26,582 bases of DNA from NCBI GenBank assembly GCA_944383195.1, contig CALWOP010000177.1, forward strand, positions 122,390-148,971, given 5' to 3'. A program made the position numbers and the translations under genes. How positions within the stretch are numbered: position 1 is the stretch's first letter; each line of letters opens with the position of its first letter. This DNA is from an uncultured Oscillospiraceae bacterium. GTDB lineage: Bacteria > Bacillota > Clostridia > Oscillospirales > Oscillospiraceae. Positions 3,033-23,472 of this stretch are shown here, piece after piece. The notes beneath the pieces were generated by a model that saw nothing but the letters and a program-made list of their open reading frames with translations, searched no databases and was not told the DNA's origin.

Positions 3033-4784
3033 TTGGAATATTCATTAATTAGTCCACGAAATTAGGATTATACAGCGTTAGAATAGGTATTGATAAATAG
3101 AGGTATTAAATATGAAGATATACCTCATTATCTAACTGTATCAGAAAAAGATAATTTATCTCCTTTACTTCTTAATAATATTGAACGCGCTGTTTAGCTA
3201 ATTATTAAGCATATATTAAAAGACGATTCTTATATCTATATCTAGGTAGATAGCGATTGTGATGGATATACTTCTGCGGCTTTATTGCTAAACTATCTTC
3301 ATGCACAATTCCCTTCTGCAATAAACAAGTTTATTTATGGTTTTCATCAAGGTAAAATACATGGTATAAAACCAGAATTAATCCCCGATAAAGTTTCACT
3401 TGTTATTGCACCAGATTCTAGCTCTAATGATTATCAAGAGCATGAAGAATTAGTGAAAAAGGGAATTGATGTATTAGTTATTGACCATCACTTAGCTGAT
3501 AAAGTTTCTGAATATGCCTGTGTAGTGAATAATTAGTTATGTGATTATCCTACTAAGTCGCTATCTGGAGTTGGAGTTGTCTATAAGCTATGTCAATATA
3601 TGGATACTGCTTGCGGGACCGCCTATGCGGACGATTTTCTAGATATTGTCGGCGTAGGTCTCGTTGGAGATATGATGGATATTAGAGACTTTGAGACCCA
3701 TTATCTTGTACAGTAGGGGCTATAGAGGTCACATCTCCGCAATCCATTTATAAAAGGCATGGCTGAAAAGAATGTGTATTAGTTAGGTCGAGGAGATTTA
3801 ACTCCTATTGGAGTAGCGTTCTACATTGTTCCTCTTGTTAATGCAATTACTCGCGTAGGTACTCAAGATGAAAAACAAATTTTGTTTGAAAGTATGCTTG
3901 AATGGAAGGCATATGATCTTATTCCATCTACGAAAAGAGGCTGTAAAGGACAAGAAGAAACTAGATTAGAACAAGCATTGAGAGTTTGTACTAATGTAAA
4001 AAATCGTTAGACTAGAACTAGAGATGCCGAAGTTGAATAGATAGAAACTATTATTCAAGAAAATAATTTATTAGAGCATAAACTTTTAATTATTAAATTA
4101 GAAGATATGCAAGTAGATAGAGGTATTACTGGTTTAATAGCTAATGAGTTAATGAGTGAATATAAGCGTCCTGTTGTTCTTTTATCTAAAACAGTACATG
4201 AGGGACAAGATGCATGGGAAGGTTCAGCTAGAGGATATGAAAAATCTAAGATGAATGATTTTAGATAGTTTGTAAGAAATTCTGGCTTAGTCTTTCTTGC
4301 CGAAGGGCACGCTAACGCTTTTGGTTTTGGTATTTATGATAAAGATTTTGATGATTTTATTTCTTGGTCTGATGAACAATTAAAAGAGATAGAGTTTTCA
4401 CCAAGCTATAAAGTAGATTTTATTTACTCGGCGTCAAATGTTAGCTCTAAAGATATATTAGAATTAGGAGATGCCAAATATCTTTGGGGTTAGAATATTG
4501 ACGAACCACTGATCGCAGTGGAAAATGTTGCAGTAACAAATGATATGCTTAGCCTTATGGCTAAAGATAGGAATCCTACTTTGAAGATTCAATTACCTAA
4601 TGGAGTTACTTGCATCAAGTTTAAATCAAGCGAAGAGGAGCTAGATAATTTATCTAGTGAATTAGGTTGCGTGAGTATAAATTTGATTGGTAAGCCAGAA
4701 GTAAATAGATACTTCGGTAGTGTGACACCACAAATTATTATTACAGATTACGAAATTATAAGTAGATAGAAGTATTACTTTTAA
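3033..4784 (+). CDS. recJ: RecJ-like DHH/DHHA1 phosphoesterase (ssDNA exonuclease) carrying 13 in-frame TAG codons. Start is a putative TTG.
   Basis: Frame 3 is continuous from 3033 to TAA at 4782 if TAG is sense. Motifs span the TAGs: VLINRGI, ERAVQLI...VDSDCDGYTSAALL (DHH motif I-II), VLVIDHH (DHH), and EGHANAFGF (DHHA1 GGGH-like). AAGGAGAG lies 12 nt upstream of TTG 3033. No in-frame ATG is available, so the exact start is uncertain. Confidence 0.72.
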
Positions 4785-4823
4785 TGATTGCGCAACCTCT
4801 TACTAAAGGAGGAAACAATCACG

Positions 4824-5591
4824 ATGAAACGTTTTATAAGTATTATACTAAGTTTAATCATTCTATTATCTATGGTTTGTAGTTGTAATAGTCCATTTAT
4901 TGCTATTGCTTCTGCATATTCAGTACAGTATAATGATACTACGAGTTATACCTATGATGATTTAGATATATTGATTGAGCTTATTGCGGAACAAATCTCT
5001 AATATGAACGCCGCACATCAAATGGCCGACGCTGCTAGACAGTTAGGCTATTCAGAAGACCATGATATAATTAAACTTGCTGTGGAAGAATATAATAATG
5101 CTAATGAGATAAGGCAAGATTATCAGCGAGTATACGATGAACTCATGGAACATTGGCATCAAAAGGAAGAAGAGTACCCAGTAGCTACATATATATGGAG
5201 TTATTTTAAGGAATTAGGCTATAGTAATCAAGTTTGTGCTGGAATACTTGGTAATATAATGGCTGAAGTTGGTGGTAATACGCTAGACATACAATACGAT
5301 ATATATGGTTCTTCATATTATGGTATGTGTCAATGGAATAAAGCGTATTCTGAGGTTTGGGGAGCCTCACTAGAAGAGCAATGCAATTATTTAGAAGATA
5401 CTATTGAATATGAATTCGATACATTTGGTTATGCCTATAAGAGAGGGTTTGACTATAATGATTTTCTAAATATGACAAGTATAACTGATGCTGCTCTTGC
5501 ATTTGCTAAATGCTATGAAAGATGCGCATCTGGAAGTTATACAGTAAGACAAAATAATGCTATAACCGCATATAATTATTTTGTAAGTTAA
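4824..5591 (+). CDS. Secreted peptidoglycan-hydrolase-like protein (phage tail lysozyme family-like). No TAG.
   Basis: AAAGGAGGAA lies 8 nt before the ATG. The N-terminus looks like a signal peptide (MKRFISIILSLIILLSMVCSCNSPFIAIASA|YS, an AxA cleavage site). The AGILGNIMAEVGG motif resembles the GNxxxE(S) core of phage lysozyme-like domains. Stop codon is TAA. Confidence 0.5.
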   Translation: MKRFISIILSLIILLSMVCSCNSPFIAIASAYSVQYNDTTSYTYDDLDILIELIAEQISNMNAAHQMADAARQLGYSEDHDIIKLAVEEYNNANEIRQDYQRVYDELMEHWHQKEEEYPVATYIWSYFKELGYSNQVCAGILGNIMAEVGGNTLDIQYDIYGSSYYGMCQWNKAYSEVWGASLEEQCNYLEDTIEYEFDTFGYAYKRGFDYNDFLNMTSITDAALAFAKCYERCASGSYTVRQNNAITAYNYFVS

Positions 5592-5601
5592 AGTAAAATA
5601 T

Positions 5602-5637
5602 CTGCGGGCTGCCGGAACCTAGACGACCGTCCGCAGA
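5602..5637 (+). terminator. Stem-loop downstream of the lysozyme-like gene (TCTGCGG...CCGCAGA).
   Basis: A perfect 7-bp GC-rich stem with a 21-nt loop. A T-run (CTATTTTTTGG) appears only about 20 nt later, so this is a weak terminator candidate. Confidence 0.3.
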
Positions 5638-5674
5638 AACTAAAATAGGTTTAACTATTTTTTGGGGTAAAGGT

Positions 5675-6132: not shown

Positions 6133-6319
6133 AAAGAAAATTAAGGGTTACGGATATGACAGTCTTTGTTTAAGATATAATATAGCAAGAGATGCTCAAG
6201 CTAGATATGAAATGACCAATATTTATAGACATGATCCTGAGAAAGCTATGGATATTGCTAAAAGAGACAAACTTCGTTTTTATGAAATCCTTAATGATTT
6301 GATTGGAGAACACGATTAA
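6107..6319 (+). CDS. Hypothetical protein (70 aa).
   Basis: GGAGAAG lies 7 nt before ATG 6107. Its stop overlaps the start of the next gene (TTAATGG). Confidence 0.4.
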   Translation: MDDIMKNIEKKIKGYGYDSLCLRYNIARDAQARYEMTNIYRHDPEKAMDIAKRDKLRFYEILNDLIGEHD

Positions 6320-7500
6320 TGGAATTAACGCGTAAACAAGAGGAAGGATTGCGCATAGCTATTGATAGATATAATCATAATGAACCATATACTGTAATTG
6401 CTGGGTATGCGGGGACAGGGAAGAGTACCTTAATTAACTTCATTATAGCAGCTCTTGAAGTAAATCCAGAAGATGAAGTTGCGTACATTACTTTTACAGG
6501 AAAGGCTTCTGAAGTACTTCGAGAAAAAGGGTGCCCTAATGCTATGACCGCGCATAAACTACTGTACTACAGTAAGCAAATGCCAAATGGTAAATTCTTT
6601 TATCGTCCTCGCCCAAGTCTTGAAAAGGATTACAAAGTTATTGTTGTCGATGAAGTAAGTATGCTTCCTAAAGATATGTGGGATTTATTGCTTACTCATG
6701 GTATTTATGTAATTGCTTGCGGCGACCCCTTCCAAATCCCTCCTATTGACAAGAATCAAGATAATGGCATCTTGAATAATCCTCATATTTTTCTTGATGA
6801 AGTAATGAGACAAGCTAAAGAAAGTGATATTATCTGTCTTAGCATGGATATTCGAGAGGGCAAGAAAATTAATCCTTTTAAAGGAAATGATACGCAAGTT
6901 TTTAATAAGAAAGATCTTTGCGATGGGATGTATTTTTGGGCAGATCAAATCCTTGTTTCTACAAATAAAAGCAGGCATGACATAAATTCTTATATACGAG
7001 ATGATTTAGGGAGAGGATTTGAGCCAGAAATTAATGATAAAGTTATTTGTTTGCGGAATTGCTGGGATACGCTCTCTGAAAAGCAATGTGACCCTCTGAT
7101 CAATGGCTCAATCGGTACAATTAGTGCCATGCACATGGAATCTATTGATTATATTATAATGGGACAAAAGGTAACTGCTCCTGTTTTAGTTACCGATTTA
7201 ATTACTTCCAATGATGAATATAAAAATTTACATATTGATTATACTGCATTAACAACTGGAGAAAAATTTTTTACTCCAAGGCAAGAATATGTTATTAGAA
7301 AGAATAAACAAAATCCTGAACTACCTATTGAGTTCAATTTTGGCTATGCTATTACCGGCCATAGAGCACAAGGCTCTCAATGGAATAAAGTTTTAGTATT
7401 AGAAGAGTCTTTTCCGTTTGATAAAATTGAGCACGCTAGATGGTTATATACTACTGTGACAAGAGCTGCGGAAAAACTTACGTTGATTTTAAGAAATTAA
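6319..7500 (+). CDS. dda: SF1B DNA helicase (Dda/RecD-like). No TAG.
   Basis: Walker A is AGYAGTGKST and Walker B is VIVVDEVSM. The C-terminal motif YAITGHRAQGSQW is also present. Stop codon is TAA. Confidence 0.8.
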   Translation: MELTRKQEEGLRIAIDRYNHNEPYTVIAGYAGTGKSTLINFIIAALEVNPEDEVAYITFTGKASEVLREKGCPNAMTAHKLLYYSKQMPNGKFFYRPRPSLEKDYKVIVVDEVSMLPKDMWDLLLTHGIYVIACGDPFQIPPIDKNQDNGILNNPHIFLDEVMRQAKESDIICLSMDIREGKKINPFKGNDTQVFNKKDLCDGMYFWADQILVSTNKSRHDINSYIRDDLGRGFEPEINDKVICLRNCWDTLSEKQCDPLINGSIGTISAMHMESIDYIIMGQKVTAPVLVTDLITSNDEYKNLHIDYTALTTGEKFFTPRQEYVIRKNKQNPELPIEFNFGYAITGHRAQGSQWNKVLVLEESFPFDKIEHARWLYTTVTRAAEKLTLILRN

Positions 7501-7545
7501 TATGCTATAATTATTATATAGTAAAAATAAAAGGTTGTGATTTAT

Positions 7546-8172
7546 ATGTGGACCATATATAGACACATCAATAAAATAAATGGAAAGTCATATATAGGAA
7601 AAGCAAAAGATGTGAATGATAGATGGGCAAATAATGGTAGTAAATATAAAACTTGTCCAAGATTTTGGTCAGCTATTGTTCATTATGGTTGGGACAACTT
7701 TGAGCATACTATTTTAGAAGATAATATAGATGATAAAGAGGTAGATGAACGAGAAAAGTTCTATATTAAATATTACAATTCTCTATATCCGAATGGCTAT
7801 AATTTAGCAATGGGCGGTTCTGGAGGAAATACCTGGGCAGGAAAGACATAGGAAGAAAAATAGAAATTTTCAGAAGAAAGAAGAAATGAGACTTTATCTC
7901 GTGGGGAAGATTGGCATAAAAAATTGTCTCAGGCTCAATATAATAGATGGTCAAAGGTAGAAGAAAAAGAAAAAATGTCCAATAGGGTTTCTGGTGGGAA
8001 AAATCCAATGGCTAAAAGATGCTTGTGTGTAGAGACTGGAATTATCTATAATAGCTATGCTGATGCAGCAGAAGAGTGTGGTTATCCCAGAAGTTCTGGT
8101 TCAAAAATTGGGATGGTAATACGAGGATAGAAGAAAACTTTTGCAGGATTTCATTGGAGATAGATAGATTAA
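7546..8172 (+). CDS. Free-standing GIY-YIG homing endonuclease carrying 4 in-frame TAG codons.
   Basis: GIY-YIG core: IYRHINKINGKSYIGKAKDVNDRW. The C-terminus has NUMOD-like DNA-binding repeats (GGKNPMAKRCLCVETGIIYNSYADAAEECG) that also occur in the intron HEG. Frame 1 is continuous through the TAGs at 7849, 7861, 8128 and 8161, ending in TAA at 8170. AAAGG precedes ATG 7546. Confidence 0.72.
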
Positions 8173-8190
8173 TTGTAGGAGAGTGTAAGA

Positions 8191-11100
8191 ATGGGTTATT
8201 TTAATAATCATAGCCATACTATGTATAGTAATTTAAGACTACTTGACTGTATTAATCGCCCAGAAGAATTGATAGATAAAGCAATTGAACTTGGTCTTAC
8301 TGGTATAGGGATTACCGATCATGAATCGTTAAGCGCTCACATGGCAGTTAATAAATATGCAAAGAAAATTAAAGAATCTAATCCAGATTTTGTTATTGCC
8401 CTTGGTAATGAGATTTATTTAACTGATACGAGGGATTTAGGACAAAGATATTATCACTTTATTCTTCTTGCAAAAGATGAAATTGGTTATAGAGGATTAA
8501 AAGAATTATCATCTATTGCATGGATGAATGGATATTATGATCGTAGAATGGAAAGAGTTCCTTTGCTTAAATCTGAATTAAAAGATGTAATGCAAAGATT
8601 TAAGGGACATATTATAGGAACTACAGCTTGTATTGGCGGAGAACTTGGCAGCACAATTCTTAATTTAGAAAACTGTGAGAAGGTAAATGATATTACTAAC
8701 GCGCAGCGTTATCATAAGCAGATAGTTGATTTTATGACTTTCTGTATAGATGTATTCGGTCATGATGATTTCTATATTGAGTGCGCTCCCGCCGCTTATG
8801 AAGATCAAATTATTGCTAATAAGAGAATGTTAAAAATCTCTGAGGCTTTTGATGTAAATATGTGTATTGGGACTGATGCTCATTATTTAACAAAAGAAGA
8901 TAGGTATGTTCATAAGGCATATCTTAATTCTAAAGGCGGAGAACGAGAAGTTGATAGTTTTTATGAATTTACATATCTAATGACCGAAGATGAAACTAGA
9001 GAATTACTCCGTTTGAGCTTTGAAGAAGATATTATTGATTGGATTTTTAAATGCTCAAACGAGATTAAAGATAAAATACAATTCTACTCATTGGAAAGAC
9101 ATCAATCTATTCCAGAAGTAGAAGTTACAGATTATCCTGCTATAAGTTGGTGGGGCGTAAATAATGATATTGCAGATGAAATGGCAAAATATCCAATTTT
9201 AAAATCATTATTTACTTCTGATAATATTCAAGAAAGATATTGGATTAATGAATGTTGGAAAGCATTAGAAGATAAAGGGATTGATTGGATAAATGATCCT
9301 AGATACCCAGAACGGCTCGAAGAAGAAGCAAGAGTAAAGAGAGTAATCGGCGAAAAACTACAAACCTGTATGTTTGCATATCCGAATACTCTAAAACACT
9401 ACGTTGATTTATTCTGGAATTGCGGAAGTACGGTAGGTGCGGGGCGAGGCTCGGCTTGTGCAGCTTTAAATCATTATTTGTTGGGAATTACTCAACTAGA
9501 TCCAATTGAATGGGATCTTCCTTTCTGGCGTTATATTAATGATGAAAGAACTGAATTAGGAGATATTGATCTCGATCTTGCCCCTTCAAAAATTCAGAAA
9601 ATCTTTTCTGAGATTCGCAAAGAGCGTGGAGAATTAGGATTAGTACAAGTATGTACTTTTGGTACGGAAGGAACTAAATCTGCTATTTTGACCGCTTGTA
9701 GAGGTTATCGTTCAGAAGAATATCCAGATGGAATTGACGTTGACATGGCTCAATATATGAGTTCTTTAATTCCTCAAGAACGTGGATTTTTATGGCCTAT
9801 TGAAGATGTTATTAATGGTAATCCAGAAAAAGGACGCAAGCCTGTTACAGTATTTGTAAACACTGTAAATCAATATCCTGGGCTTCTTGATATTATTACA
9901 AGGATTCAAGGTCTAGTAAATAAACGTTCAAGCCATGCTTCTGGAGTTATTTTATTTGATGAAAACATCTTTGATACAGCAGCAGTAATGAGGACTCCTA
10001 AAGGAGCTTTAATTACCCAATGGGATTTGCATGACCAAGAAGCTGCTGGTTCTGTAAAATATGATTTCCTGCTTACCGCAGTTCAAGACATTATTATTCA
10101 AACTATTTCTCTATTACAAGAAGATGGAGTTATTGAGAAAGATTTAACATTACGAGAAGTCTATAATAAATACCTCCACCCATCTGTCCTCCCGCAAAAT
10201 GATAAGAAAATGTGGGATGCTCTTGCTAATGGCGATGTTCTTGGATGTTTCCAGTTTGATTCTAGTGTTGGTGCACAAGCAGCTAAAAAGATTAAACCTC
10301 AGAATCCACACGAAATGGCGGATGCTAACGGATTAATGCGTCTAATGACTCAAGAAAAAGGTGCAGAAACTCCAATGGAGAAATATGTCCGCTTCAAGAA
10401 TAATATTTCTCTTTGGTACAAAGAAATGGATCAACAGGGTTTAACTAAAGAAGAGCAAAAAATTCTTGAACCTCATTTCTTACGTTCTTATGGCGTTCCT
10501 CCTAGTCAAGAACAAATGATGACCATGCTTCAAGACCCAAATATTTGCGGATTTACGCTCGCTGAGGCGAACGCCGCAAGAAAAATAGTTGGTAAGAAGC
10601 AAATGAATAAAATTCCAGAGTTAAGAGAAAAAGTTCTTAATTCTGCAAAATCTTCTGCTCTTGGTCATTATGTATGGAATTATGGTATCGGACCTCAAAT
10701 GGGGTATAGTTTCTCGATTATCCATGCTCTTGCTTATAGTTTTATCGGTATGCAAACCTTATATTTAGCAACACATTTTAATCCTGTTTATTGGAATACA
10801 GCATATCTGATTGTAAATAGTGGAGCTATTGATGAAGAAGAAGGAGAACAATCTGACTATACCAAGATTGCTAAAGCCATTGGAGAAATCCGTAATGCAG
10901 GTATAAAAGTATCTCTAGTAGATATTAATCACTCTGACTTTGGATTTAAGCCAGATGTGGAGAATAATCAAATCTTGTTTGGATTAAAAGGACTAGCTAA
11001 TGTTAATAACGATTTTATTAAAGATATTATTGATAATAGACCTTATGTATCTCTGCTTGATTTTCTCAATAGAGTGCATCCAAATAAGCAAGCTATGATT

Positions 11101-12619: not shown

Positions 12620-12687
12620 ATAAATATATCTTAAATTACAATATATAGTGATTCACAAAAAATTCTTATACAAGGAGTTGTTTATAT

Positions 12688-13941
12688 ATGCTTCAAGTAA
12701 GAAAGAGAAATGGTATCTTAGTACCATTTGATAAAGAGCGTATTATTAATGCTATTAATAAGGCTTTTATTGAAGTTGATGGAGCTTTATATGAAGATGA
12801 TACTGCAAATGATATTGCAGATGAAATTAAATATGCAGTAAAAACTTCTGATGAAGTGGTTTCTGTTGAAAAAATTCAAGATATGGTAGAAGACTATCTT
12901 ATGAAATCTGAGCGCAGAGATGTTGCTAAAGAATATATAAGATATAGATATAAAAGAGAAATTGCGCGAAAAGGTTAGGATGATTTTATTAAGGCCTTTT
13001 CCGCAAAAATTCAAGGATCTGATATTGAAAACCAAAATGCTAATGTAGATGAAATGTCTTTTGGCGGTAGAGTTGGAGCTGCATCAGATCTACAAATGAA
13101 GAAGTATGCTCTTGATTATCTTGTTTCTAGTAAGTCAAGAGCTAATCATGAGAATAATGAAATCTATATTCATGATTTAAATGCTTATGCAGTAGGTATG
13201 CACAATTGTCTATCTATTCCTTTTGATGATTTGCTGGCAAAAGGATTTAATACTAGACAAACTGATGTGCGTCCTGCTGGTTCTATAAATACTGCTTTTT
13301 AGCTTGTTGCAGTTATTTTCCAGCTACAAAGCCTGCAACAATTTGGCGGGGTATCTGCTACTCACCTTGATTGGACTATGGTTCCATATGTAAGAAAGAG
13401 TTTCTATAAGCATTGGAATGATGGTATTCGTTATATTGGTCAAGAGATTATTCCAGATGAAATAACAGATATATTTAAGGGAAATAGAGAATTGCCTATT
13501 GATCAATACCCAAGAGATAATGAATACAGAAAGATATATAGATATGCTATAGAAATGACAGAAAAAGAAACTCATCAAGCTGTTGAAGGAATGTATCATA
13601 ATTTAAATACCCTTCAATCTCGTTCTGGAAATCAATTACCATTTACTTCTATTAACTACGGTACTTGCGCTCTTCCAGAAGGACGTATGGTTATTAAATC
13701 GTTGCTTGAAGTTTCCATAGAAGGATTAGGTAAATTACATAAAACTTCTATCTTCCCATGTGGCATCTTCCAATGTATGAAAGGCGTAAATAGAGCGCCG
13801 GGTGATCCAAACTATGATTTGTTTAGACTTGCTTTAAAGTCTACTGCTTTAAGATTATATCCTAACTATGCTAATGTTGATTGGACTGGTAATGCGGGAT
13901 ATGATAAAAATGACCCTAAGACTTATTTCAGTACCATGGGT
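12688..13941 (+). CDS. nrdD: Anaerobic ribonucleoside-triphosphate reductase NrdD, exon 1 (ATP-cone plus catalytic N-terminal part). Two in-frame TAG codons.
   Basis: ATP-cone N-terminus MLQVRKRNGILVPFDKERIINAI. The frame is continuous through the TAGs at 12976 and 13300. The exon ends ...YFSTMG at a U, followed by a group I intron (see the intron feature). Confidence 0.8.
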
Positions 13942-15078
13942 AAGCGTAAACTACAGCCCATGTAAAACCTTTTGAACCTCGCCCGAGGGTGTTTGCGGAA
14001 GTCCGATTAAAGATCGGTTTAGCAAAATCCGCAAGCTAACGGTTAGGTCCTATATGGATGAGACCGTGCTAAATTTCTAATAGAGTAAAAAATTTTGGTT
14101 AAAACTTTATAATGAACTTTGAATGGTTTTTATCTATAATAGAAGGTGCAGCACCTTTAATTGTTATTCAAAAGGAGAATATTCAATGTTCATCTATAAA
14201 ATTAGTAACACAGTAAATGATAAAGTGTATATTGGTTAGACGATTCGTCCAATAGAAGATCGTTTTAATAGACATATAAACGATGCTATGAACAATATTC
14301 TTGATACGCATTTTGCTAGAGCAATTAGACTTTATGGTCCAGATAAATTCTATATAGAATTATTGGATACTGCTAATAGTCAAGAAGAGCTTACTCAAAA
14401 AGAACGAGATTATATTCAATTATATAACTCTATTAAAAATGGATATAATGAAACTGATGCAATAAGCAAATGCGGAGGCAATACCTATAAGAATAAAACA
14501 AAAGAAGAAATGGACGTTATAAAAGAGAAAATTAGGTAGACCAAGCTTGGTGGGAAAAATCCCCATGCTGCTAAAGTAAAATGCAAGAATATTGAAACTG
14601 ATAAAGAATTATTTTTTGATAGTATGGCTGAATGTGCAGCATATTTTGGTAAAGATAATCATCAATTTATTTCTAGGAGATGCAGAGGAGAAGTAAAGAG
14701 TCTCTATGAAGGTAAATGGAAATTTGCATATCAAGATCAAGATTATAATATTTTTACCTCTAGACCAAACGCTAAAAGAACTAAACGTGTCGAAGTTTTA
14801 AATTTAGAAACTCAAGAAAAAGTAGTTTTTAATACAATGAAAGATGTTGATAGATATTGCGGCTTTGGCTTAGATTATACTAGTAAAAAATTTAAATCAA
14901 CTGGAGCTAAAGAGATTTACAGAAATCAATATAAACTTACTCTATTAGATTAAATGTGTATCGACTATCCCTGATGAGTGTAAGGGAGTAGGACTGGAGA
15001 TAGGCACCAGTTCGAAGCGGAAGGCTATCGAAAGATAGAATATATAGTCAGTGCTGATGGCAACATCAGATAATAATG
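13942..15078 (+). mobile_element. Group I self-splicing intron interrupting nrdD. It carries a GIY-YIG homing endonuclease ORF.
   Basis: The 5' exon ends CATGGGU at 13941. The intron's internal guide sequence GCCCAUG (13956-13962) pairs with it to form P1, with the U.G wobble at the splice site. The adjacent CUACA (13951-13955) pairs with the 3' exon start UGUAG (15079-15083) to form P10. The intron ends in G at 15078. The spliced junction reads ...STMG|CRTANG..., restoring a continuous NrdD frame. Structured GC-richer RNA flanks the HEG ORF on both sides. Confidence 0.75.
14186..14953 (+). CDS. Intron-encoded GIY-YIG homing endonuclease (I-TevI/II-like) carrying 2 in-frame TAG codons.
   Basis: AAAGGAGAA RBS. 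The GIY-YIG core reads FIYKISNTVNDKVYIG(TAG)T...RFNRH, which restores the canonical YIGQT if TAG is Gln. The C-terminal NUMOD-like region reads GGKNPHAAKVKCKNIETDKELFFDSMAECAAYFG. Stop codon is TAA. Confidence 0.75.
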
Positions 15079-16086
15079 TGTAGAACCGCAAATGGATTCG
15101 ACATTAATGGCTTAGGACAACAAAAAGATGGAAGAGGAAATATCTGTCCTGTAACTATTATCATGCCAACAATAGCTATGGAAGCTGTTACTCTAAGCGA
15201 CAATGACGATTGGAATCAAATTAAAGATTTGTCTCAAGATGAAAGAATAAAGATTGGCGTAGAAAGATTTATGGAACTTTTGGATACAAAAATCTATGAA
15301 GCTAAAGATATGCTGCTTGAAAGATTTGAATATATTTGCGCGCAGCCAGCTGAATCTGCTAAATTCATGTATGAGAATGGATTAATGGCTGGATATGATG
15401 GGATTTCTACTAGAAGCGCATTACAGCATGGTACTTTAAGCCTTGGACAAATTGGGCTCGCGGAAACACTTCAGATCTTGATTGGTTGTGATCATACTAC
15501 TAAAGAAGGTATGGAATTAGCAAAGAGAATTGAGAGTTTATTCAAGCAAAGATGCGCTGAATTTAAAAATCAGTATAAGCTTAACTTCGGGGTATATTAT
15601 ACTCCGGCCGAAAATCTTTGCTACACTTCTCTTGAAAAATTCAAGAAAAAGTATGGAGTAATTCCTAACGTAAGTGATAGAGAGTACTTTACTAATTCTA
15701 TCCACGTTCCCGTATGGAAACAAATCTCTCCATTTGATAAGATTGATATTGAATCTCAATTAACAGGATATTCTTCTGCTGGTTGTATTACTTATGTAGA
15801 GCTTGATAGTGGTGTGAAGAATAATATTGATGCTCTTGAAATATTAGTAAATTATGCCATGGATAAGGACATCCCGTATTTCGCTATTAATGTCCCTAAT
15901 GATACCTGTCTTGAATGTGGATATATGAATGAATTTAATGACCATTGCCCAGAATGTGGTAGTGATCATATTCAACAACTTCGTAGAGTAACAGGCTATC
16001 TTACTGGCAATTATAAGACAGCTTTTAATAAGGGCAAGATTGCTGAAACAGACGATAGAGTTAAACATGTGGGGTATATGGAATGA
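15079..16086 (+). CDS. nrdD: NrdD exon 2 (C-terminal part with zinc-ribbon and glycyl-radical motif).
   Basis: CxxC...CxxC zinc motif: CLECGYMNEFNDHCPECG. Glycyl radical motif RVTGYL. Stop codon is TGA at 16084-16086. Confidence 0.8.
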   Translation, partial: CRTANGFDINGLGQQKDGRGNICPVTIIMPTIAMEAVTLSDNDDWNQIKDLSQDERIKIGVERFMELLDTKIYEAKDMLLERFEYICAQPAESAKFMYENGLMAGYDGISTRSALQHGTLSLGQIGLAETLQILIGCDHTTKEGMELAKRIESLFKQRCAEFKNQYKLNFGVYYTPAENLCYTSLEKFKKKYGVIPNVSDREYFTNSIHVPVWKQISPFDKIDIESQLTGYSSAGCITYVELDSGVKNNIDALEILVNYAMDKDIPYFAINVPNDTCLECGYMNEFNDHCPECGSDHIQQLRRVTGYLTGNYKTAFNKGKIAETDDRVKHVGYME

Positions 16087-16742
16087 ATAAACAGCAAAAA
16101 GTTAGAGATAGTATTCTAAAAATGAATTAGGATACTTATAAAGCTAAAGATAAATATTTTGAAAAAATAACTAAAGTAATTATTTAGTGTGTAAATAATT
16201 ATTCTGCCTTAACATGGGATAAAGGATTATAGGAAGTTTTTGAACTTTTTATAGATTCTTTAACTGAAACTTATACCATTACAATGCGTGAATTAAGAAA
16301 TATATATTCTAAATTGGAAGATTTTAATATCGACGATATTTCTTAGCTTACTTATTAGGAAGATGGAAAAACATTATATGATAGAATAAAAAAGTATTGG
16401 GATCAGGCTGAATCTGATATAAAAGGTGAATTAGACTATGATTTAGTAAAAGCTTATTTGATTGATAGATATGATATGCTTTTAGAAAATGAAACTAAAA
16501 TTATATAGAGTCAAGTAGAAAAAAATAAGATAGCCCCAGTGGCTACTTTGTTAGTAATTGAATCAGAAGGCCATGATTGTAGATGGGGATGTTCAAATTA
16601 TGAGGGAGAATATTCTCCAGAAGATCCAGTTCCTCTCCCTCCTTATCATCCTAACTGTCAATGTATTTTTTATTATGTTGAGACAGATAATGATGATGAT
16701 ATTGTAGATTTAGATTTAGAAATTGAAGATATTAAGTGGTGA
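16083..16742 (+). CDS. Hypothetical Cys/His-motif protein (about 220 aa) carrying 6 in-frame TAG codons. The C-terminus resembles the MuF-type PPxHPNC(R)C motif.
   Basis: Its ATG overlaps the nrdD stop (ATGA). Frame 3 is continuous through 6 TAGs to TGA at 16740. The C-terminus reads GHDCRWGCSNYEGEYSPEDPVPLPPYHPNCQC. Confidence 0.5.
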
Positions 16743-16747
16743 TTTAA

Positions 16748-17221
16748 TTGAAATATGCAGGTATTATTTATAATGATTTTGCGGCAGCACCAGGTGTGTC
16801 CTTGAGTTTCTTTACTCAAGGATGCCCTAACCGCTGTCCGGGATGCCATAATCAAGAAACGTGGGATTTCGATGGAGGAAAAGAATTTACACATGAGGCT
16901 TTTACCTCTCTAATAGAAGGATTAACTGCAAATGGGATTAAACGAACTTTATGTGTAATGGGCGGAGAACCTCTTTGTCCAGAAAATTCTTTTCTCACGA
17001 ACTTAGTGATTCAAACCGCAAAAGAAAAAGTTCCAGATTTAAAAGTTTATCTATGGACTGGTTACTTATATGAAGATTTAAAAAAATCAACAGATACAAC
17101 TATTTAGAATATACTCCAATTAATTGATGTTCTAATTGATGGGCCTTATATTGAAGCTGAAAGAGATATTACAGAACCTCTAAGGGGTAGCCGCAATTAG
17201 AAGATTATATATCTAAAATGA
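16748..17221 (+). CDS. nrdG: Anaerobic RNR activating enzyme NrdG (radical SAM) carrying 2 in-frame TAG codons. TTG start.
   Basis: The N-terminus (MKYAGIIYNDFAAAPGVSLSFFTQGCPNRCPGCHNQETW) matches the NrdG N-terminus with its CxxxCxxC cluster. After the TAG at 17105 the C-terminal motif reads DGPYIEAERDITEPLRGSRN(TAG), the conserved GSxNQ. Stop codon is TGA at 17219. Confidence 0.8.
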
Positions 17222-17760
17222 TATTTTTTAAAAGTATCTTTGGAGGGATAATGATAGCAATAGCCAGCTATATTTATTTATCTGTTGGAGGTATAGTTGG
17301 TGCTATCATGTTCTCTATTGGCTTATTAACTATATTAAATATGGGATTTAAATTATTTACTGGCTCGGTTGGATATATCAAGAGCAAAGATGATATTAGA
17401 GATAATATTATTATTCTTATAGGTAATATTATTGGGGCTTGCGGGATTCTAGCTTTTCCGCACGCTGCAGCATTATCCTTGGTAGCCAGTAAGCTAACAA
17501 TTCCGCTATATTTAGTTTTCTTAAAAGGAGTAGTTTGTGGAATATTTATCTATTCTGCGGTTGCCTGTTTTAAGAAAAATAAAGATTATATGGTGCCAGT
17601 ATGCGTAACAGGCTTTATACTATTCGGAGGAGAACACTGTATTGCCGATCTTTGCTACGCCCTGGCCGCAAGCACCTTTTCTATTGATATATTATTATTT
17701 CTTATAGTAGTTACGATCGGTAATTCTATAGGAGCAATTATTGTTGACAGAATACAATAA
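17218..17760 (+). CDS. Integral membrane protein with about 5 TM helices. No TAG.
   Basis: Hydrophobic segments span the protein. A KLFTGS motif is faintly reminiscent of the FNT signature. The start overlaps the nrdG stop (ATGA). Confidence 0.55.
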   Translation: MIFFKSIFGGIMIAIASYIYLSVGGIVGAIMFSIGLLTILNMGFKLFTGSVGYIKSKDDIRDNIIILIGNIIGACGILAFPHAAALSLVASKLTIPLYLVFLKGVVCGIFIYSAVACFKKNKDYMVPVCVTGFILFGGEHCIADLCYALAASTFSIDILLFLIVVTIGNSIGAIIVDRIQ

Positions 17761-17796
17761 TTATGATATTATATTAAAAGAAATGGAGGACTAGAT

Positions 17797-18404: not shown

Positions 18405-18406
18405 TT

Positions 18407-19147
18407 ATGTTAAAGCCAATAGATGAAACCGGTCATGTGTATGGAAAGCTAGTAGTAATAAAACGTGGCCCTAATGACAAAAATAATAGAGCTTAGTGGT
18501 TTTGCAAATGTAGCTGTGGCAATGAAATCTTAACTTTAGGCACTTATTTACGAAATAAATCTGTAACAAGTTGCGGCTGTGGTAAATTTAGTCCAAAAGT
18601 AAAGGATGAAACTGGGAAAATCTATGGAGATTGGAAAGTAATAAGACGAGATAAAAATCGCATTGGAGAAGCTTACTGGTTATGCGAATGTTTAAAATGC
18701 GGTACAATTTCTAGTGTATTAGGAACTAATTTAAGAACTGGAAAAAGTCAATCTTGCGGATGCTTAAAATCTAAAGGAGAATAGTTAATATCTTCAATTC
18801 TTACAGAGTTGAAATATAATTTCAAAAAAGAAGTTCATTTCCTAGATTTAAAGAGCCCCTTAAGCAATAACCCCTTGCGGTTTGATTTTGGAGTCTTTAA
18901 TGACGAGGATAATCTTTTATTTTTAATTGAATATCAAGGTATATAGCATGAAAAAGATATTCCTTATTTTGGCAATTCTCTACATGATAATTTATTAAGA
19001 GACGCTGCAAAACGAAAATATTGTAAGCAAAAAGGTATTCCATTAATCTGTTTTACCCATATTAATGGAAAAATTCCTAATTATGAAGATACAAAAGCAT
19101 CTATTAAAGAAAGCTACGAGGAGATTATAAATGAAATATCTAATTGA
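18407..19147 (+). CDS. Putative free-standing homing-type endonuclease carrying 2 in-frame TAG codons. It has two N-terminal zinc-ribbon repeats and a C-terminal Vsr-like / PD-(D/E)xK (DUF559-like) domain.
   Basis: Zinc-ribbon repeats: WFCKCSCGNEILTLGTYLRNKSVTSCGC and YWLCECLKCGTISSVLGTNLRTGKSQSCGC. The C-terminus (FDFGVFNDEDNLLFLIEYQGIQH...RDAAKRKYCKQKGIPLICF) resembles Vsr/DUF559 nucleases, and its E-x-x-G-x-(TAG)-H core is restored as QH. Stop codon is TGA. Confidence 0.55.
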
Positions 19148-19367
19148 TACTACCGAAATATATAGAGTAGATTCAGAAGCTGAGGCAGACCAACTACTTG
19201 AGACAGCTAAAGTTTCTGGGGTATTAAATAAATATAGCTGCGTATACAAGGAACGAAAGCAAAAAGGCGAAATTATAGATTCTTGGTATCGAGTTACTCT
19301 CAACAAAAAATTTACCGACGAAAAAGACCCAACTACCCAAATTACTATATCTTATACGGAGGAATAA
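19131..19367 (+). CDS. Hypothetical protein (78 aa).
   Basis: Clean ORF that overlaps the previous gene by 17 nt. Stop codon is TAA. Confidence 0.45.
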   Translation: MKYLIDTTEIYRVDSEAEADQLLETAKVSGVLNKYSCVYKERKQKGEIIDSWYRVTLNKKFTDEKDPTTQITISYTEE

Positions 19368-19370
19368 CAT

Positions 19371-19934
19371 ATGATAAAGTTTGAAAAAGTCTCTCGTTTT
19401 AATGACATTGATCTACCCCTGCCAACACGAGCAACCGCCAATTCCGCGGGCTATGATTTCGTTGTTGCAGAAGATATTGTTCTTCCTCCCATGAGTTTTC
19501 TTACTTCCAAAGTTCAAGATCATGTATTTGAAGAAAATAAAGATTTAGACTTTTATGGCTTTACCAATCCATTTACTCTTGATGAAATGGCCAAGCTTAC
19601 GAAAAGTTTAAAGTCAAAGGTAACTCTTGTATCAACAGGAATGAAGTGCCATCTTAATCCTGGTCAATATCTTGAATTAAGCGTGCGGAGTTCCACTCCT
19701 CTAAAACACTGGATTATTTGTGGTAATAGTGTAGGTATTATTGACGCAGACTATTGTGATAATCCCGATAACGAGGGAGAGATTTTCTTCCAATTAATTA
19801 ACTTGTCTCCTTTTGCCATTAAACTTAATAGAGGAGATAAGATTGGTCAAGGTATTATTAAAACTTATGGAATTACCGACGACGACTCTGCTACAGGAGA
19901 GCGTTTAGGTGGATTTGGAAGTACAAGTAAGTGA
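19371..19934 (+). CDS. dut: dUTP diphosphatase (trimeric dUTPase). No TAG.
   Basis: All five dUTPase motifs are present: AGYDF, VRSS, GIIDADY, GDKIGQ and ERLGGFGSTSK. Stop codon is TGA. Confidence 0.85.
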   Translation: MIKFEKVSRFNDIDLPLPTRATANSAGYDFVVAEDIVLPPMSFLTSKVQDHVFEENKDLDFYGFTNPFTLDEMAKLTKSLKSKVTLVSTGMKCHLNPGQYLELSVRSSTPLKHWIICGNSVGIIDADYCDNPDNEGEIFFQLINLSPFAIKLNRGDKIGQGIIKTYGITDDDSATGERLGGFGSTSK

Positions 19935-20410
19935 GTAATTTACTATCTTTAGATTAGAGCTCTCGCATTACGGGATATGCTATCTTTGAAGATGGTAAAC
20001 TTAAGACTTATGGGAAATTCACTGTTGATGACGATAATACTGATATAAGATTAGTAAAGATACGATAGAAGGTTTAGGAATTAATAACTAGACATAACAT
20101 AGATGAAGTCGTATTTGAAGATATACAACAATAGAATAACGTTGCTAATAATGTGTAGACTTTTAAAATTTTAGCCGAGGTATATGGAGTAATCTCTGAA
20201 TATTTAGAAGAAAATAAAATACCTCACTCTACAATTTTATCAACCTCATGGAAATCTGCTCTTGGAATTAAAGGAAGAACAAGACCAGAATAGAAGAAAA
20301 ATGCTTAGAATTATGTATTTGAAAATTATGGAGTAAAGCCTACACAAGACGAGAGTGACGCAGTTTGTATCGGTCTCGCGCACATTAAATAGAGTTAGTG
20401 CGCTTGGTAA
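19931..20410 (+). CDS. ruvC: RuvC-like Holliday-junction resolvase carrying 9 in-frame TAG codons. GTG start.
   Basis: The N-terminus LLSLD(TAG)SSRITGYAIF resembles RuvC motif I (IDxGxxxxGxA). The C-terminus DESDAVCIGLAHI resembles RuvC's DAADALAIAICHA. The GTG start overlaps the dut TGA (GTGA). Frame 2 is continuous to TAA at 20408. Confidence 0.7.
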
Positions 20411-20477: not shown

Positions 20478-20496
20478 CTTACAATTGACCTTCATA

Positions 20497-23460: not shown

Positions 23461-23472
23461 CTTATCTTCTCC

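What the first reader, a model, noticed from the sequence alone, without database searches (positions are those of the whole stretch)
3033..20410. In-frame TAG density varies widely between genes, and the largest genes are amber-free
DnaE (1302 codons), the Dda-like helicase (393), dUTPase (187), the secreted lysozyme-like protein (255) and the membrane protein (180) contain zero TAGs. The RecJ-like gene has 13 in about 583 codons. RuvC has 9 in 159 codons, and the Cys/His protein at 16083 has 6 in 220. In the amber-free genes Gln is supplied only by CAA/CAG. Under the published model, recoded stops gate late-gene translation until a suppressor tRNA is made. Amber-free genes would then be translatable immediately, giving a putative early set of polymerase, helicase, dUTPase and lysozyme-like protein. 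DnaB and primase carry one TAG each, so they do not fit a clean early/late split. The heterogeneity could instead mark different evolutionary origins of the genes.
Basis: seen in the sequence. Interest (0 to 1): 0.6.

Follow-up and report, generated by a model that had tools for sequence, protein, structure and literature searches.

The report
Uneven amber-codon use in recoded phage
This piece of a gut phage reads the stop codon TAG as glutamine, but its core replication enzymes and (in relatives) its most abundant coat and tail proteins avoid TAG almost completely while other genes use it freely; this is a clear example of a pattern already described for other recoded phages.

Summary
The counts are right and far beyond chance (permutation p<1e-5). 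The window belongs to a TAG->Gln recoded, SPbeta-like phage of about 147 kb. Opposite window TAGs, close relatives have TAG (145) or Gln (115), and no gene ends in TAG.

About 80 kb stitched from each of three related genomes shows two gene classes. In one, TAG is ~4-6% of Gln codons; in the other ~48-49%. Mutation bias alone predicts 0.41-0.53. So RecJ, RuvC and the homing endonucleases are unconstrained, and DnaE, DnaB, primase, Dda and NrdD are purged of TAG.

The split is not explained by:
- gene length: a 2,899-aa tape-measure gene has 102 TAGs;
- evolutionary rate;
- foreign origin.

The early-gene reading is only partly right. The capsid-like and tail-like proteins are late but also TAG-free, and they carry a high-expression codon signature. 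The early enzymes lack that signature.

Best reading: TAG is selected against where translation happens before or without efficient suppression, and where output must be maximal. Timing is inferred. No suppressor tRNA was found in ~100 kb. The phenomenon is known (Borges et al.), so this is a new member.

The parts
50..1603 (+). DnaB-like replicative helicase; TAG-poor (1 TAG / 22 Gln-like codons)
   Evidence: Pfam DnaB and DnaB_C. Pooled close relatives 11/118 = 0.09. The window's TAG (codon 98) is Gln in all relatives.
1909..3012 (+). Primase-like protein (yorJ position); TAG-poor (1/9)
Evidence: Synteny with SPbeta yorJ. Relatives 0/65; the window TAG at codon 183 is Gln in all relatives.
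3033..4784 (+). RecJ-like ssDNA exonuclease (yorK homologue); TAG-rich (13 TAG, 14 CAA, 1 CAG)
   Evidence: Pfam DHH, DHHA1 and RecJ_OB. All close relatives have 13 TAGs, but only 8 positions are shared with the window. Pooled share 0.46.
4788..5591 (+). Secreted Phage_lysozyme2-family protein; TAG-free (0/12)
   Evidence: Pfam PF18013. 0/71 in six relatives.
6319..7500 (+). Dda/PIF1-like SF1 helicase; TAG-poor (0/13)
   Evidence: Pfam AAA_30, UvrD_C_2 and PIF1. Relatives 10/90 = 0.11.
7537..8172 (+). Free-standing GIY-YIG homing-endonuclease-like ORF; TAG-rich (4/6)
   Evidence: Pfam GIY-YIG. Patchy among relatives.
8191..12099 (+). DnaE-type DNA polymerase (SPbeta YorL homologue, 40% identity); TAG-free (0/50)
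   Evidence: Pfam PHP, DNA_pol3_alpha, finger and HHH_6. tblastn. Relatives 10/410 = 0.02, with TAGs at scattered, mostly lineage-private positions.
12047..12619 (+). Guanylate kinase; TAG-rich (3/6)
   Evidence: Pfam Guanylate_kin. Relatives 19/40 = 0.47.
12688..13940 (+). Anaerobic ribonucleotide reductase NrdD, 5' part (the ORF runs on to 13965); TAG-poor (2/19)
   Evidence: Pfam ATP-cone and NRDD positions 2-265. Junction mapped against the intact orthologue. Relatives 6/142.
13941..15078 (+). 1,138-bp window-specific insert splitting nrdD (group-I-intron-like), carrying GIY-YIG ORF 14123-14953 (2 TAG / 10)
   Evidence: Alignment to the intact 729-aa NrdD of a relative. The 5' exon ends in T and the insert ends in G. 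Pfam GIY-YIG. No Rfam hit.
15076..16086 (+). NrdD, 3' part (glycyl-radical domain); TAG-free (0/14)
   Evidence: Pfam NRDD 264-562 and Gly_radical. Relatives 4/112.
16083..16742 (+). Cys/His ORF; a window-specific exact insertion between nrdD and nrdG; TAG-rich (6/11)
   Evidence: Absent from all relatives. Weak PHROG match to the Mu-F/SPP1-gp7-type C-terminal motif.
16748..17221 (+). NrdG activase; intermediate (2/6)
   Evidence: Pfam Fer4_12 and Radical_SAM. Relatives 12/50 = 0.24.
17218..17760 (+). Formate/nitrite-transporter-family membrane protein; 0 TAG but only 1 Gln codon (uninformative)
   Evidence: Pfam Form_Nir_trans. Orthologues 8/10 TAG.
18407..19147 (+). Third homing-endonuclease-like ORF; TAG-rich (3/6)
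   Evidence: PHROG 374, 559 and 9084, HNH/homing endonuclease families. Patchy in relatives.
19371..19934 (+). dUTPase; TAG-free (0/4)
   Evidence: Pfam dUTPase. Relatives 1/46.
19931..20410 (+). RuvC-like Holliday-junction resolvase; TAG-rich (9 TAG, 3 CAA); its start overlaps the dUTPase stop by 4 bp
   Evidence: Pfam RuvC. Junctions. Relatives 61/95 = 0.64 in the close clade, but 0-1 TAG in the L008/L010 lineages.
20485..20913 (+). 142-aa protein of unknown function; TAG-rich (4/8)
   Evidence: PHROG 4105/4257, function unknown.
22304..23203 (-). Gly/Cys-rich 299-aa protein, GC 0.44; TAG-poor (1/25)
   Evidence: phrog_16490, function unknown. Relatives 10/208 = 0.05.
23227..23871 (-). Two small TAG-rich genes missed by the standard-code ORF list (77 aa: 4 TAG/4 Gln; 132 aa: 5 TAG/8 Gln)
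   Evidence: Orthologues in relatives. Window coordinates.
24010..24432 (-). Holin-family protein (1/6; relatives 14/44 = 0.32)
   Evidence: phrog_13712 holin, E = 3.6e-33..
24755..26536 (+). Big_3 Ig-like-domain surface or tail protein (5/23)
   Evidence: Pfam Big_3. Orthologues carry 6-8 TAG.

Best explanation
The window is part of the replication module of a ~147-kb SPbeta-like phage of gut Bacillota in which TAG encodes glutamine.

In this genome CAG->TAG is a synonymous transition favoured by AT-biased mutation. Left alone, TAG drifts to about half of all Gln codons. RecJ, RuvC, Gmk, the homing endonucleases, the Cys/His insert and most minor virion proteins sit at that level.

The real signal is purifying selection that keeps TAG out of two sets of genes.
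(i) Core replication and nucleotide-supply enzymes: DnaE, DnaB, primase, Dda, NrdD and dUTPase, plus GyrA, GyrB and ligase next door in relatives. These must be translated by the host's standard-code machinery before, or without, efficient suppression.
(ii) The most abundantly made virion proteins (capsid-like, major-tail-like, neighbouring head genes). Even a small per-codon loss, or a limited supply of suppressor tRNA, is costly there.

Yield falls roughly as (read-through efficiency)^n. A gene with 9-13 TAGs in the same operon as TAG-free genes is therefore effectively silent until suppression is high, whereas one stray TAG (DnaB, primase) is tolerated.

Shown: the code, the two classes, selection against TAG, and independence from length, evolutionary rate and origin.
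Inferred: that the cause in set (i) is timing, that suppression efficiency rises during infection, and that a phage suppressor tRNA exists.
For: Code:
- Coverage by long ORFs rises from 0.50 to 0.83 when TAG is read through.
- No gene ends in TAG.
- Opposite window TAGs, close relatives have TAG 145, Gln 115, Lys 19, Ile 2.
- Gln-like content is equal in both classes, 4.2% vs 4.0%.

Two classes:
- A binomial mixture beats a single rate by LRT 147-189 in three ~70-kb genome composites. p_low is 0.04-0.06 and p_high 0.48-0.49. A third class adds nothing.
- The window alone gives LRT 50.9.

Neutral expectation:
- TTG:CTG = 65:19 and CAA:CAG = 208:52 predict a TAG share of 0.41-0.53.

Selection:
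- RecJ keeps 13 TAGs in the window and in relatives, with only 8 shared positions.
- DnaE TAGs in relatives are few and scattered.
- Conserved-Gln-column counts are 2:6:8:239 vs 146:60:57:162, at four-fold divergence 0.36 vs 0.32.

Not length:
- 2,899-aa gene 102 TAG/101 CAR; 1,311-aa 25/21; 929-aa 27/19; rho ~0.

Not evolutionary rate:
- rho 0.20 (p 0.22) with amino-acid divergence and 0.00 with four-fold divergence.

Late genes split by abundance:
- TerL-like 13/10 and portal-like 16/7, against MCP-like 0/13, major-tail-like 0/15-16 and p229 0/8.
- This holds in 66-75 loci.

Two reasons for avoidance:
- Abundant virion genes use CGT for 51-55% of Arg and GGT for 46-49% of Gly.
- Early TAG-free enzymes (15-16% and 30-31%) match TAG-rich genes (14-15% and 28-30%).

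Same transcripts:
- 4-bp overlaps at dUTPase/RuvC and NrdD/CysHis; primase-RecJ gap 20 bp; no terminator signal above background.

Literature:
- The early/late code-switch model, 'variable' recoding of replication genes and a recoded homing endonuclease in an early gene are all described by Borges et al. (bioRxiv 10.1101/2021.08.26.457843).
Against: - No expression data exist, so early versus late is inferred from function and from the SPbeta analogy.
- No suppressor tRNA, release factor or aaRS was found in the window or in ~100 kb of the ~147-kb genomes of close relatives. About 45-50 kb remain unseen. Related lineages do carry tRNA(CUA) upstream of gyrB.
- The MCP identification rests on weak tblastn matches (E ~1e-7) to annotated capsid proteins. 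The 'major tail protein' rests on position and on a PHROG 'virion structural protein' label. Their abundance is assumed, not measured.
- RuvC's load is lineage-specific: 6-9 TAGs in the close clade, 0-1 in two sister lineages. Its delay cannot be an ancient requirement.
- ThyX, Gmk and NrdG, which one might expect to be early, are TAG-rich or intermediate.
- Rich and poor classes were partly defined after seeing the data, although the mixture fit is class-free.
Confidence: 0.6

Rival explanations
1. Pure efficiency or dosage model with no temporal switch. TAG is simply a slow or leaky codon at all times, and it is avoided in proportion to how much protein is needed. The replication enzymes are TAG-free because they are highly expressed. 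RecJ, RuvC and the endonucleases are TAG-rich because only traces are needed, or because attenuation of nucleases is beneficial.
For: - The most abundant late proteins are TAG-free while the low-copy TerL, portal, tape-measure and baseplate proteins are TAG-rich.
- All five nuclease genes in the window fall in the TAG-bearing group.
Against: - The early TAG-free enzymes show none of the high-expression codon signature that marks the capsid and tail genes.
- The distribution is bimodal rather than graded.
- A 2,899-aa protein with 102 TAGs and a 929-aa protein with 27 must be completed. Late read-through therefore has to be near 99% per codon, which leaves little cost for a low-copy polymerase (inference).
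Confidence: 0.2
2. Host-code state other than early lytic infection. The TAG-free replication genes are those that must work in a carrier, episomal or lysogenic state in which no suppressor is made, and TAG locks the lytic programme.
For: - The closest cultured relatives (SPbeta-like) are temperate (established knowledge).
- Borges et al. report that integrases avoid recoded stops.
Against: - The only recombinase seen near the window in relatives (a 223-aa serine recombinase) carries 5-6 TAGs.
- No integrase or repressor was identified in ~100 kb.
- This model does not explain the TAG-free capsid and tail genes.
Confidence: 0.1
3. Non-equilibrium accumulation. TAGs have simply accumulated faster in fast-evolving genes since the code changed, and slow genes have not caught up.
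For: - A study of recoded gut phages found that genes with in-frame TAG mutate more, and suggested exactly this (bioRxiv 10.1101/2023.08.07.552389).
- TAG saturation differs between lineages of this family: tape-measure share is 0.5 in one clade and 0.13 in another.
Against: - TAG share is uncorrelated with amino-acid divergence (rho 0.20, p 0.22) and with four-fold divergence (rho 0.00).
- The difference persists at conserved Gln columns.
- TAG<->CAR flips are common (27% of such columns) in rich genes and rare (5.5%) in poor genes, at equal synonymous divergence.
- The rich class already sits at the mutational equilibrium.
Confidence: 0.05
4. Different evolutionary origins. Amber-free genes were recently acquired from standard-code phages or hosts.
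For: Mosaic divergence exists: some genes are identical between relatives while neighbours differ at 50% of four-fold sites.
Against: - DnaB-primase-RecJ-DnaE is an ancestral syntenic block shared with SPbeta and with every relative.
- Codon usage and GC are the same in both classes.
- Mosaic divergence does not track TAG share.
- The demonstrably mobile genes are the TAG-rich ones.
Confidence: 0.03

Closest known systems
Stop-codon-recoded gut phages with code-dependent gene classes (Borges et al., bioRxiv 10.1101/2021.08.26.457843; crAss-like, Lak, Agate, Jade, Sapphire, Garnet and other clades)
   Same: - TAG->Gln.
- Only a fraction of genes carries in-frame stops.
- Replication genes are standard-code compatible or 'variably' recoded.
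- Most structural and lysis genes are recoded.
- A homing endonuclease inside an early gene is preferentially recoded.
- The paper proposes a translational early/late switch.
   Different: - Here the split runs gene by gene inside tightly packed, probably co-transcribed arrays.
- The upper class equals the mutational equilibrium rather than showing enrichment.
- The capsid-like and major-tail-like genes are TAG-free, whereas a tail tube family was preferentially recoded in crAss-like phages.
- No suppressor tRNA or release factor has been located.
- Whether this lineage is one of the named clades was not tested.
SPbeta-like phages (Spbetavirus; Bacillus phage SPBc2 yorG-yorL) and large Enterococcus phages (EF1, EF5, VRE9)
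   Same: - DnaE-type polymerase at ~40% identity over 99% of its length.
- Same gene order: Sak4-like, DnaB-like helicase, yorJ, RecJ-like exonuclease, polymerase.
- Genome size about 130-147 kb.
- The Enterococcus phages also match the MCP-like protein at 38% identity (SPbeta itself was not among the listed hits); the 464-aa tail-like protein matches EF5 at about 40%.
   Different: - These relatives use the standard code.
- The window lineage has extra inserts (lysozyme-like gene, Dda helicase, homing endonucleases) between RecJ and the polymerase.
phAss-1 / proposed Phassvirus (PMC10607447)
   Same: - ~136-kb human-gut Caudoviricetes genome.
- TAG->Gln in 28% of ORFs, including TerL, portal and tape measure.
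- Suppressor tRNA-CUA genes present.
   Different: - megablast of 25 kb of the window against the GenBank phage collection found nothing.
- The best DnaE protein matches there are standard-code phages at 40%.
- This is therefore not a close relative. No direct comparison was made.
Codon-usage bias from translational selection in highly expressed genes
   Same: The TAG-free capsid and tail genes also prefer CGT, GGT, NNC and AAG/GAG. TAG behaves like a disfavoured codon there.
   Different: The early enzymes avoid TAG without any such general bias, which ordinary translational selection does not predict.

Membership tests
Genetic code 15 (TAG->Gln) recoded phage | In-frame TAGs interrupt otherwise intact conserved genes, and coding density rises when TAG is read through | tested here: met
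   RecJ, RuvC, Gmk, NrdD, DnaB and others are full length only with TAG read through. Coverage by >=150-aa ORFs rises from 0.50 to 0.83. No comparable gain for TGA (0.51); reading TAA through gives a smaller rise (0.72).
Genetic code 15 (TAG->Gln) recoded phage | TAG aligns with glutamine in homologues | tested here: met
   Opposite window TAGs in close relatives: TAG 145, Gln 115, Lys 19, Ile 2. Gln is also the commonest residue in three more distant lineages.
Genetic code 15 (TAG->Gln) recoded phage | TAG is not used as a terminator | tested here: met
   22 genes end in TAA, 8 in TGA and 0 in TAG.
Genetic code 15 (TAG->Gln) recoded phage | Phage-encoded suppressor tRNA with a CUA anticodon | tested here: inconclusive
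   None in the window or in ~100 kb of ~147-kb close relatives. Present in related lineages (L105, L190-192, L199). About a third of the genome could not be fetched.
Genetic code 15 (TAG->Gln) recoded phage | Peptide-level proof that Gln is inserted at TAG | not testable with these tools
   Needs proteomics, as in PMC9523058.
Temporal code-switch regulation (Borges model) | Early or replication genes are compatible with the standard code | tested here: met
   DnaE, primase, NrdD, GyrA, GyrB, ligase, dUTPase and the lysozyme-like gene have shares of 0-0.05; DnaB and Dda are about 0.1. In the same arrays RecJ, RuvC, Gmk, ThyX and the homing endonucleases are at 0.4-0.6.
Temporal code-switch regulation (Borges model) | Structural and lysis genes use the alternative code | tested here: inconclusive
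   True for TerL-like, portal-like, tape-measure, baseplate and fibre-like genes and the holin (shares 0.3-0.7). Not true for the MCP-like, major-tail-like, p229 and p185 genes (share ~0.01 in 66-75 loci).
Temporal code-switch regulation (Borges model) | Code-change machinery (suppressor tRNA, RF, aaRS) encoded in standard code and expressed first | tested here: inconclusive
   Not found. The motif screen for GGQ release factors and class-I aaRS was negative in the recovered sequence.
Temporal code-switch regulation (Borges model) | TAG-rich genes are translated later than TAG-free genes | not testable with these tools
   Needs an infection time course (RNA-seq, Ribo-seq, proteomics) on a cultured host.
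Translational selection on highly expressed genes | Avoidance of the disfavoured codon coincides with general codon bias in abundant proteins | tested here: met
   MCP-like, tail-like and p229 genes use CGT for 51-55% of Arg and GGT for 46-49% of Gly, against 14-16% and 28-31% elsewhere, in three genomes. Abundance itself is assumed.
SPbeta-like phage lineage | YorL-type DnaE polymerase within the yorG-yorI-yorJ-yorK-yorL gene order | tested here: met
   40% identity over 99% of DnaE. The same order of Sak4-like, helicase, yorJ-like, RecJ-like and polymerase genes.
SPbeta-like phage lineage | Shared virion module and taxonomic placement by whole-genome or marker phylogeny | not tested
   Only pairwise hits were obtained: the MCP-like protein matches Enterococcus phages at 38% and a Staphylococcus SPbeta-like phage at 26%. 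No phylogeny was built.

The most novel reading that the evidence does not exclude
In this lineage the reassigned codon works as a quantitative code, not a binary one.
- Read-through efficiency rises during infection but never reaches 100%.
- The number of TAGs in a gene therefore sets a gene-specific delay and threshold within a single operon (yield about e(t)^n).
- The phage genome is sorted by selection into three regimes: must be made early (no TAG, no codon bias), must be made in bulk (no TAG, strong codon bias), and everything else (TAG at mutational equilibrium).

If so, TAG counts would predict both the timing and the relative abundance of proteins of uncultured recoded phages from sequence alone.
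Probability: 0.3. Interest if true: 0.6.

Novelty: new member of a known kind. Interest (0 to 1): 0.4.

Why it matters
Gene-by-gene unevenness of recoded stop codons is the main evidence behind the idea that phages use a code switch to time their late genes. This lineage gives an unusually clean version of it.
- There are two sharply separated gene classes.
- The upper class sits exactly where mutation alone would put it.
- The lower class splits into early enzymes and bulk virion proteins that avoid TAG for different reasons.

This reframes the question from 'why are late genes recoded?' to 'which genes cannot afford TAG, and why?'. It also cautions against reading 'amber-free' as 'early'.

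On the practical side:
- Standard-code gene calling shatters about half the genes here.
- The family contains both standard-code and recoded members at different degrees of TAG saturation, so it could serve as a natural series for studying how a code change spreads through a genome.

Tried and rejected
- megablast of 25 kb against GenBank phages: no match.
- Rfam at a permissive E-value over the whole window: nothing, so the nrdD insert could not be confirmed as a group I intron.
- ARAGORN on the window and on all loci fetched before the final contig look-up (L001-L415): no tRNA in the close clade.
- First rightward walk with the window's own holin sequence: it missed the close-clade contigs because of TAGs and divergence, and returned only distant relatives. 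Repeated with a relative's sequence.
- Walking through the search for homologous proteins plus look-up of encoding contigs: only 6.8- and 14.8-kb contigs, giving 2.7 kb of new sequence.
- Promoter and terminator consensus scans: counts equal the shuffled expectation, so they are uninformative about transcription units.
- Regex screen for release-factor GGQ and class-I aaRS motifs: negative.
- PHROGs could not name the MCP-like or tail-like proteins beyond 'virion structural protein' or unknown.
- Gene length as an explanation: rejected (rho ~0; the largest genes are the most TAG-laden).
- 5' positional bias of TAG as a sign of selected 'gates': not found.
- Evolutionary rate and foreign origin as explanations: rejected.
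- Decoding identity in the lineages that carry long-arm tRNA(CUA): too few TAGs in the fetched early regions to decide.

Full report
**What is there**

With TAG read through (only TAA and TGA as stops), the + strand of the window tiles almost without gaps from 50 to 20913. A divergent block follows.
- DnaB helicase
- RecJ-like DHH/DHHA1/OB exonuclease
- Phage_lysozyme2 protein
- Dda/PIF1-like helicase
- DnaE-type polymerase
- guanylate kinase
- NrdD and NrdG
- a formate/nitrite-transporter-family membrane protein
- dUTPase
- RuvC

The window also holds two GIY-YIG ORFs and a third homing-endonuclease-like ORF. None of the 30 curated genes ends in TAG: 22 end in TAA and 8 in TGA.

**Is it more than chance?**

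Yes. TAG was tested against CAA+CAG per gene, with 100,000 permutations, and also per codon. Homogeneity is rejected at p<1e-5. The signal comes mainly from:
- DnaE: 0 of 50 Gln-like codons, P = 1.6e-5
- RuvC: 9 of 12, P = 5.8e-5
- RecJ: 13 of 28, P = 1.3e-3

The zero counts for dUTPase and the membrane protein carry no weight alone (4 and 1 Gln codons). Pooled over eight close relatives, dUTPase is truly TAG-poor (1/46). The membrane protein is not (8/10).

**What TAG means**

A DnaE query retrieved 19 related IMG/VR loci at 93% to 32% identity. All but the most distant are also TAG-recoded. Opposite the window's TAGs, close relatives have TAG 145 times, Gln 115, Lys 19 and Ile 2. TAG is therefore glutamine. 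Gln-like codons make up the same fraction of TAG-rich and TAG-poor genes (4.2% vs 4.0%). The difference is one of codon choice, not composition.

**The pattern is heritable at gene level, not site level**

RecJ has 13 TAGs in the window and 13 in each of six close relatives, but only 8 positions are shared. RuvC has 6-9. DnaE has 0-2, at scattered, mostly lineage-private positions. The single TAGs in the window's DnaB and primase are Gln in every relative.

**Reframing: depletion, not enrichment**

CAG->TAG is a C->T transition. TAG cannot be reached from CAA in one step without passing through TAA. The analogous synonymous pairs give TTG:CTG = 65:19 and CAA:CAG = 208:52. These predict a neutral TAG share of 0.41-0.53 of Gln codons.
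- The TAG-bearing genes pool to 46/88 = 0.52.
- The TAG-poor genes pool to 5/169 = 0.03.

**Whole-genome context**

I walked along IMG/VR contigs. This gave composites of 64-81 kb for four close-clade genomes, with zero mismatches in the overlaps. One contig of 146,360 bp closes on itself. Metagenome and MAG contigs of 147.8-148.3 kb carry the same genes.

In three of these genomes (composites then ~67-72 kb), a two-class binomial mixture beats a single rate by LRT 147-189. The classes lie at 0.04-0.06 and 0.48-0.49, with about half the genes in each. A third class adds nothing, and gene length is uncorrelated with TAG share.

To the left of the window lie GyrB-like (0/14), GyrA-like (0/26) and ligase-like (0/4) genes and an intact NrdD (0/31). 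They sit beside a 303-aa gene with 8-11 TAGs and a ThyX-like gene with 1-3.

To the right lie the virion genes:

| Gene | TAG / CAR |
|---|---|
| tape-measure-like, 2,899 aa | 102 / 101 |
| 1,311 aa | 25 / 21 |
| 929 aa | 27 / 19 |
| TerL-like | 13 / 10 |
| portal-like | 16 / 7 |

So 'the largest genes are amber-free' is not a length effect.

**The twist**

Inside the virion module several genes are completely TAG-free:
- A 350-aa protein (0/13). It matches annotated major capsid proteins of Tsamsa-like Bacillus phages at E ~1e-7.
- A 464-aa 'virion structural protein' (0/15-16), in the position of a siphovirus major tail protein.
- Neighbouring 229-aa and 185-aa proteins.

Across 66-75 related loci from many lineages these four genes have TAG shares of 0.006-0.012. 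Adjacent minor structural genes run at 0.2-0.5.

These abundant-protein genes also carry a strong codon-bias signature: CGT is 51-55% of Arg codons and GGT 46-49% of Gly codons, with more NNC, AAG and GAG. The early TAG-free enzymes (CGT 15-16%, GGT 30-31%) are indistinguishable from the TAG-rich genes (14-15%, 28-30%) in all three genomes. The two TAG-free groups therefore avoid TAG for different reasons.

**Rivals tested**

- Evolutionary rate. TAG share is uncorrelated with amino-acid divergence (rho 0.20, p 0.22) and with four-fold synonymous divergence (rho 0.00). At columns where both genomes have a Gln-like codon, the counts TAG/TAG: TAG/CAR: CAR/TAG: CAR/CAR are 2:6:8:239 in poor genes and 146:60:57:162 in rich genes, at similar synonymous divergence.
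- Foreign origin. The Sak4-like, DnaB, yorJ-like, RecJ-like and DnaE genes follow the order of SPbeta yorG-yorL and are present in all relatives. The truly mobile genes are the TAG-bearing ones. These are the homing endonucleases, the 1,138-bp insert that splits nrdD, and the Cys/His ORF inserted exactly between nrdD and nrdG.
- Selected 'gates'. TAGs show no 5' bias relative to CAA/CAG in TAG-rich genes. The first Gln-like codon is TAG in 13/28, 12/27 and 14/25 genes, against 13.5, 12.5 and 12.1 expected.

**How it most likely works**

Shown:
- the code is TAG->Gln;
- there are two gene classes;
- selection acts against TAG in the low class;
- the split is independent of length, evolutionary rate and origin.

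Inferred:
- The early enzymes are translated by the host's standard-code machinery before a suppressor is effective, so any TAG is costly whatever the expression level.
- Late in infection read-through must be near-complete, otherwise a protein with 102 TAGs could not be finished. Only the highest-output genes still feel selection then.
- TAG-rich genes embedded in the same tightly packed arrays would be held back translationally, roughly as efficiency to the power n. Examples of the packing: dUTPase/RuvC and NrdD/CysHis overlap by 4 bp, and RecJ starts 20 bp after primase.
- A single TAG is tolerated.

Whether that delay is useful or merely harmless is open. It would affect an exonuclease, a resolvase and three homing endonucleases. 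RuvC's load is specific to the close clade.

**What is missing**

- No suppressor tRNA, release factor or aaRS was found in the window or in about 100 kb of the ~147-kb genome.
- Related lineages carry tRNA(CUA) a few kb upstream of gyrB.
- There are no expression data.
- The host is only hinted at. One full-length contig was binned with an uncultured Eubacterium MAG, and the nearest cultured relatives infect Bacillus and Enterococcus.

**Comparison with what is known**

Borges et al. (bioRxiv 10.1101/2021.08.26.457843) already describe:
- partial recoding of genomes;
- recoded structural and lysis genes;
- standard-code or 'variably' recoded replication genes;
- integrases that avoid recoded stops;
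- a homing endonuclease in an early gene that is preferentially recoded;
- a model in which early standard-code translation precedes a code switch.

Metaproteomics supports code 15 and an unrecoded early set in crAss-like phages (PMC9523058). A 136-kb TAG-recoded gut phage, phAss-1, has been described (PMC10607447), but it is not a close relative by the searches run here.

I did not find three points stated in the papers read:
- the upper class sits at the mutational equilibrium;
- the most abundant virion proteins are TAG-free with a codon-bias signature;
- the early enzymes avoid TAG without that signature.

**Verdict**

This is a new member of a known kind, of moderate interest.

Noticed in passing
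window 13941-15078 (GIY-YIG ORF 14123-14953): nrdD is interrupted exactly between ...TYFSTMG and CRTANG... by a 1,138-bp insert that carries a GIY-YIG endonuclease. The 5' exon ends in T and the insert ends in G, as in group I introns. Rfam finds no intron model. Relatives have an intact 729-aa NrdD.
   Followed up: partly
window 16088-16748 (ORF 16083-16742): The Cys/His ORF is an exact ~660-bp insertion between the nrdD stop and the nrdG start, and it is absent from every relative. Its C-terminal HxC...PPYHPNCQC motif weakly matches Mu-F/SPP1-gp7 'head morphogenesis' families. It looks like an ORF-only mobile element.
   Followed up: partly
window 23227-23460 and 23473-23871, - strand: Two small genes (77 aa with 4 TAG; 132 aa with 5 TAG) are invisible to standard-code ORF calling. 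They are conserved in relatives, where the orthologues carry 4-5 and 8-9 TAGs.
   Followed up: yes
window 22304-23203, - strand: A Gly-rich, Cys-rich 299-aa protein stands out by GC 0.44 (window ~0.33), by CAG outnumbering CAA (13 vs 11), and by being TAG-poor (1/25; relatives 10/208). Function unknown (phrog_16490).
   Followed up: no
composite of L173/L256 (contig IMGVR_UViG_3300045988_075249, about 94.5-103.3 kb): A 2,899-aa tape-measure-like gene carries 102 in-frame TAGs against 101 CAA/CAG. Orthologues in another clade of the family have only 21-32 TAGs against 163-193 CAR. The degree of TAG saturation therefore differs strongly between lineages.
   Followed up: partly
loci L254-L333: The family defined by the tape-measure and capsid module contains both fully standard-code members (0 TAG in every gene) and TAG-recoded members at several saturation levels. 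This is a possible natural series for how recoding spreads.
   Followed up: no
L105 13930-14023; L192 8359-8455 (also L190, L191); L199 1409-1483: The CUA-anticodon tRNAs of related lineages come in two forms. One is a normal 75-nt tRNA (L199). The other is a 94-97-nt tRNA with a long variable arm, which ARAGORN labels 'Pyl'. That form is unusual for a glutamine suppressor. There were too few TAGs in the fetched regions to tell what these lineages decode TAG as.
   Followed up: partly
L334 1-11000; L416; left end of composite c075249 (contig IMGVR_UViG_3300045988_075249, about 31.4-38.1 kb): The TAG-free early region upstream of gyrB encodes an RNA ligase, a Thg1-like enzyme, a KTI12/AAA_33 kinase and metallophosphatases, which looks like a tRNA repair set. 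It also encodes NAPRTase, NAD synthase, an isochorismatase-family protein and a phosphoribosyltransferase, which looks like NAD salvage.
   Followed up: no
L414 (CALCFD010000051.1, 147,780 bp): A contig the length of the whole phage genome is binned in an 'uncultured Eubacterium sp.' MAG. This may be a host hint or a binning artefact.
   Followed up: no
window 4788-5591 versus relatives' 468-aa gene (composite c075249 7662-9065): Relatives carry two Phage_lysozyme2-like genes with opposite TAG status. The secreted one next to RecJ is TAG-free (0/71 over relatives). The 468-aa one upstream of gyrB has 10 TAGs against 13 CAR.
   Followed up: no
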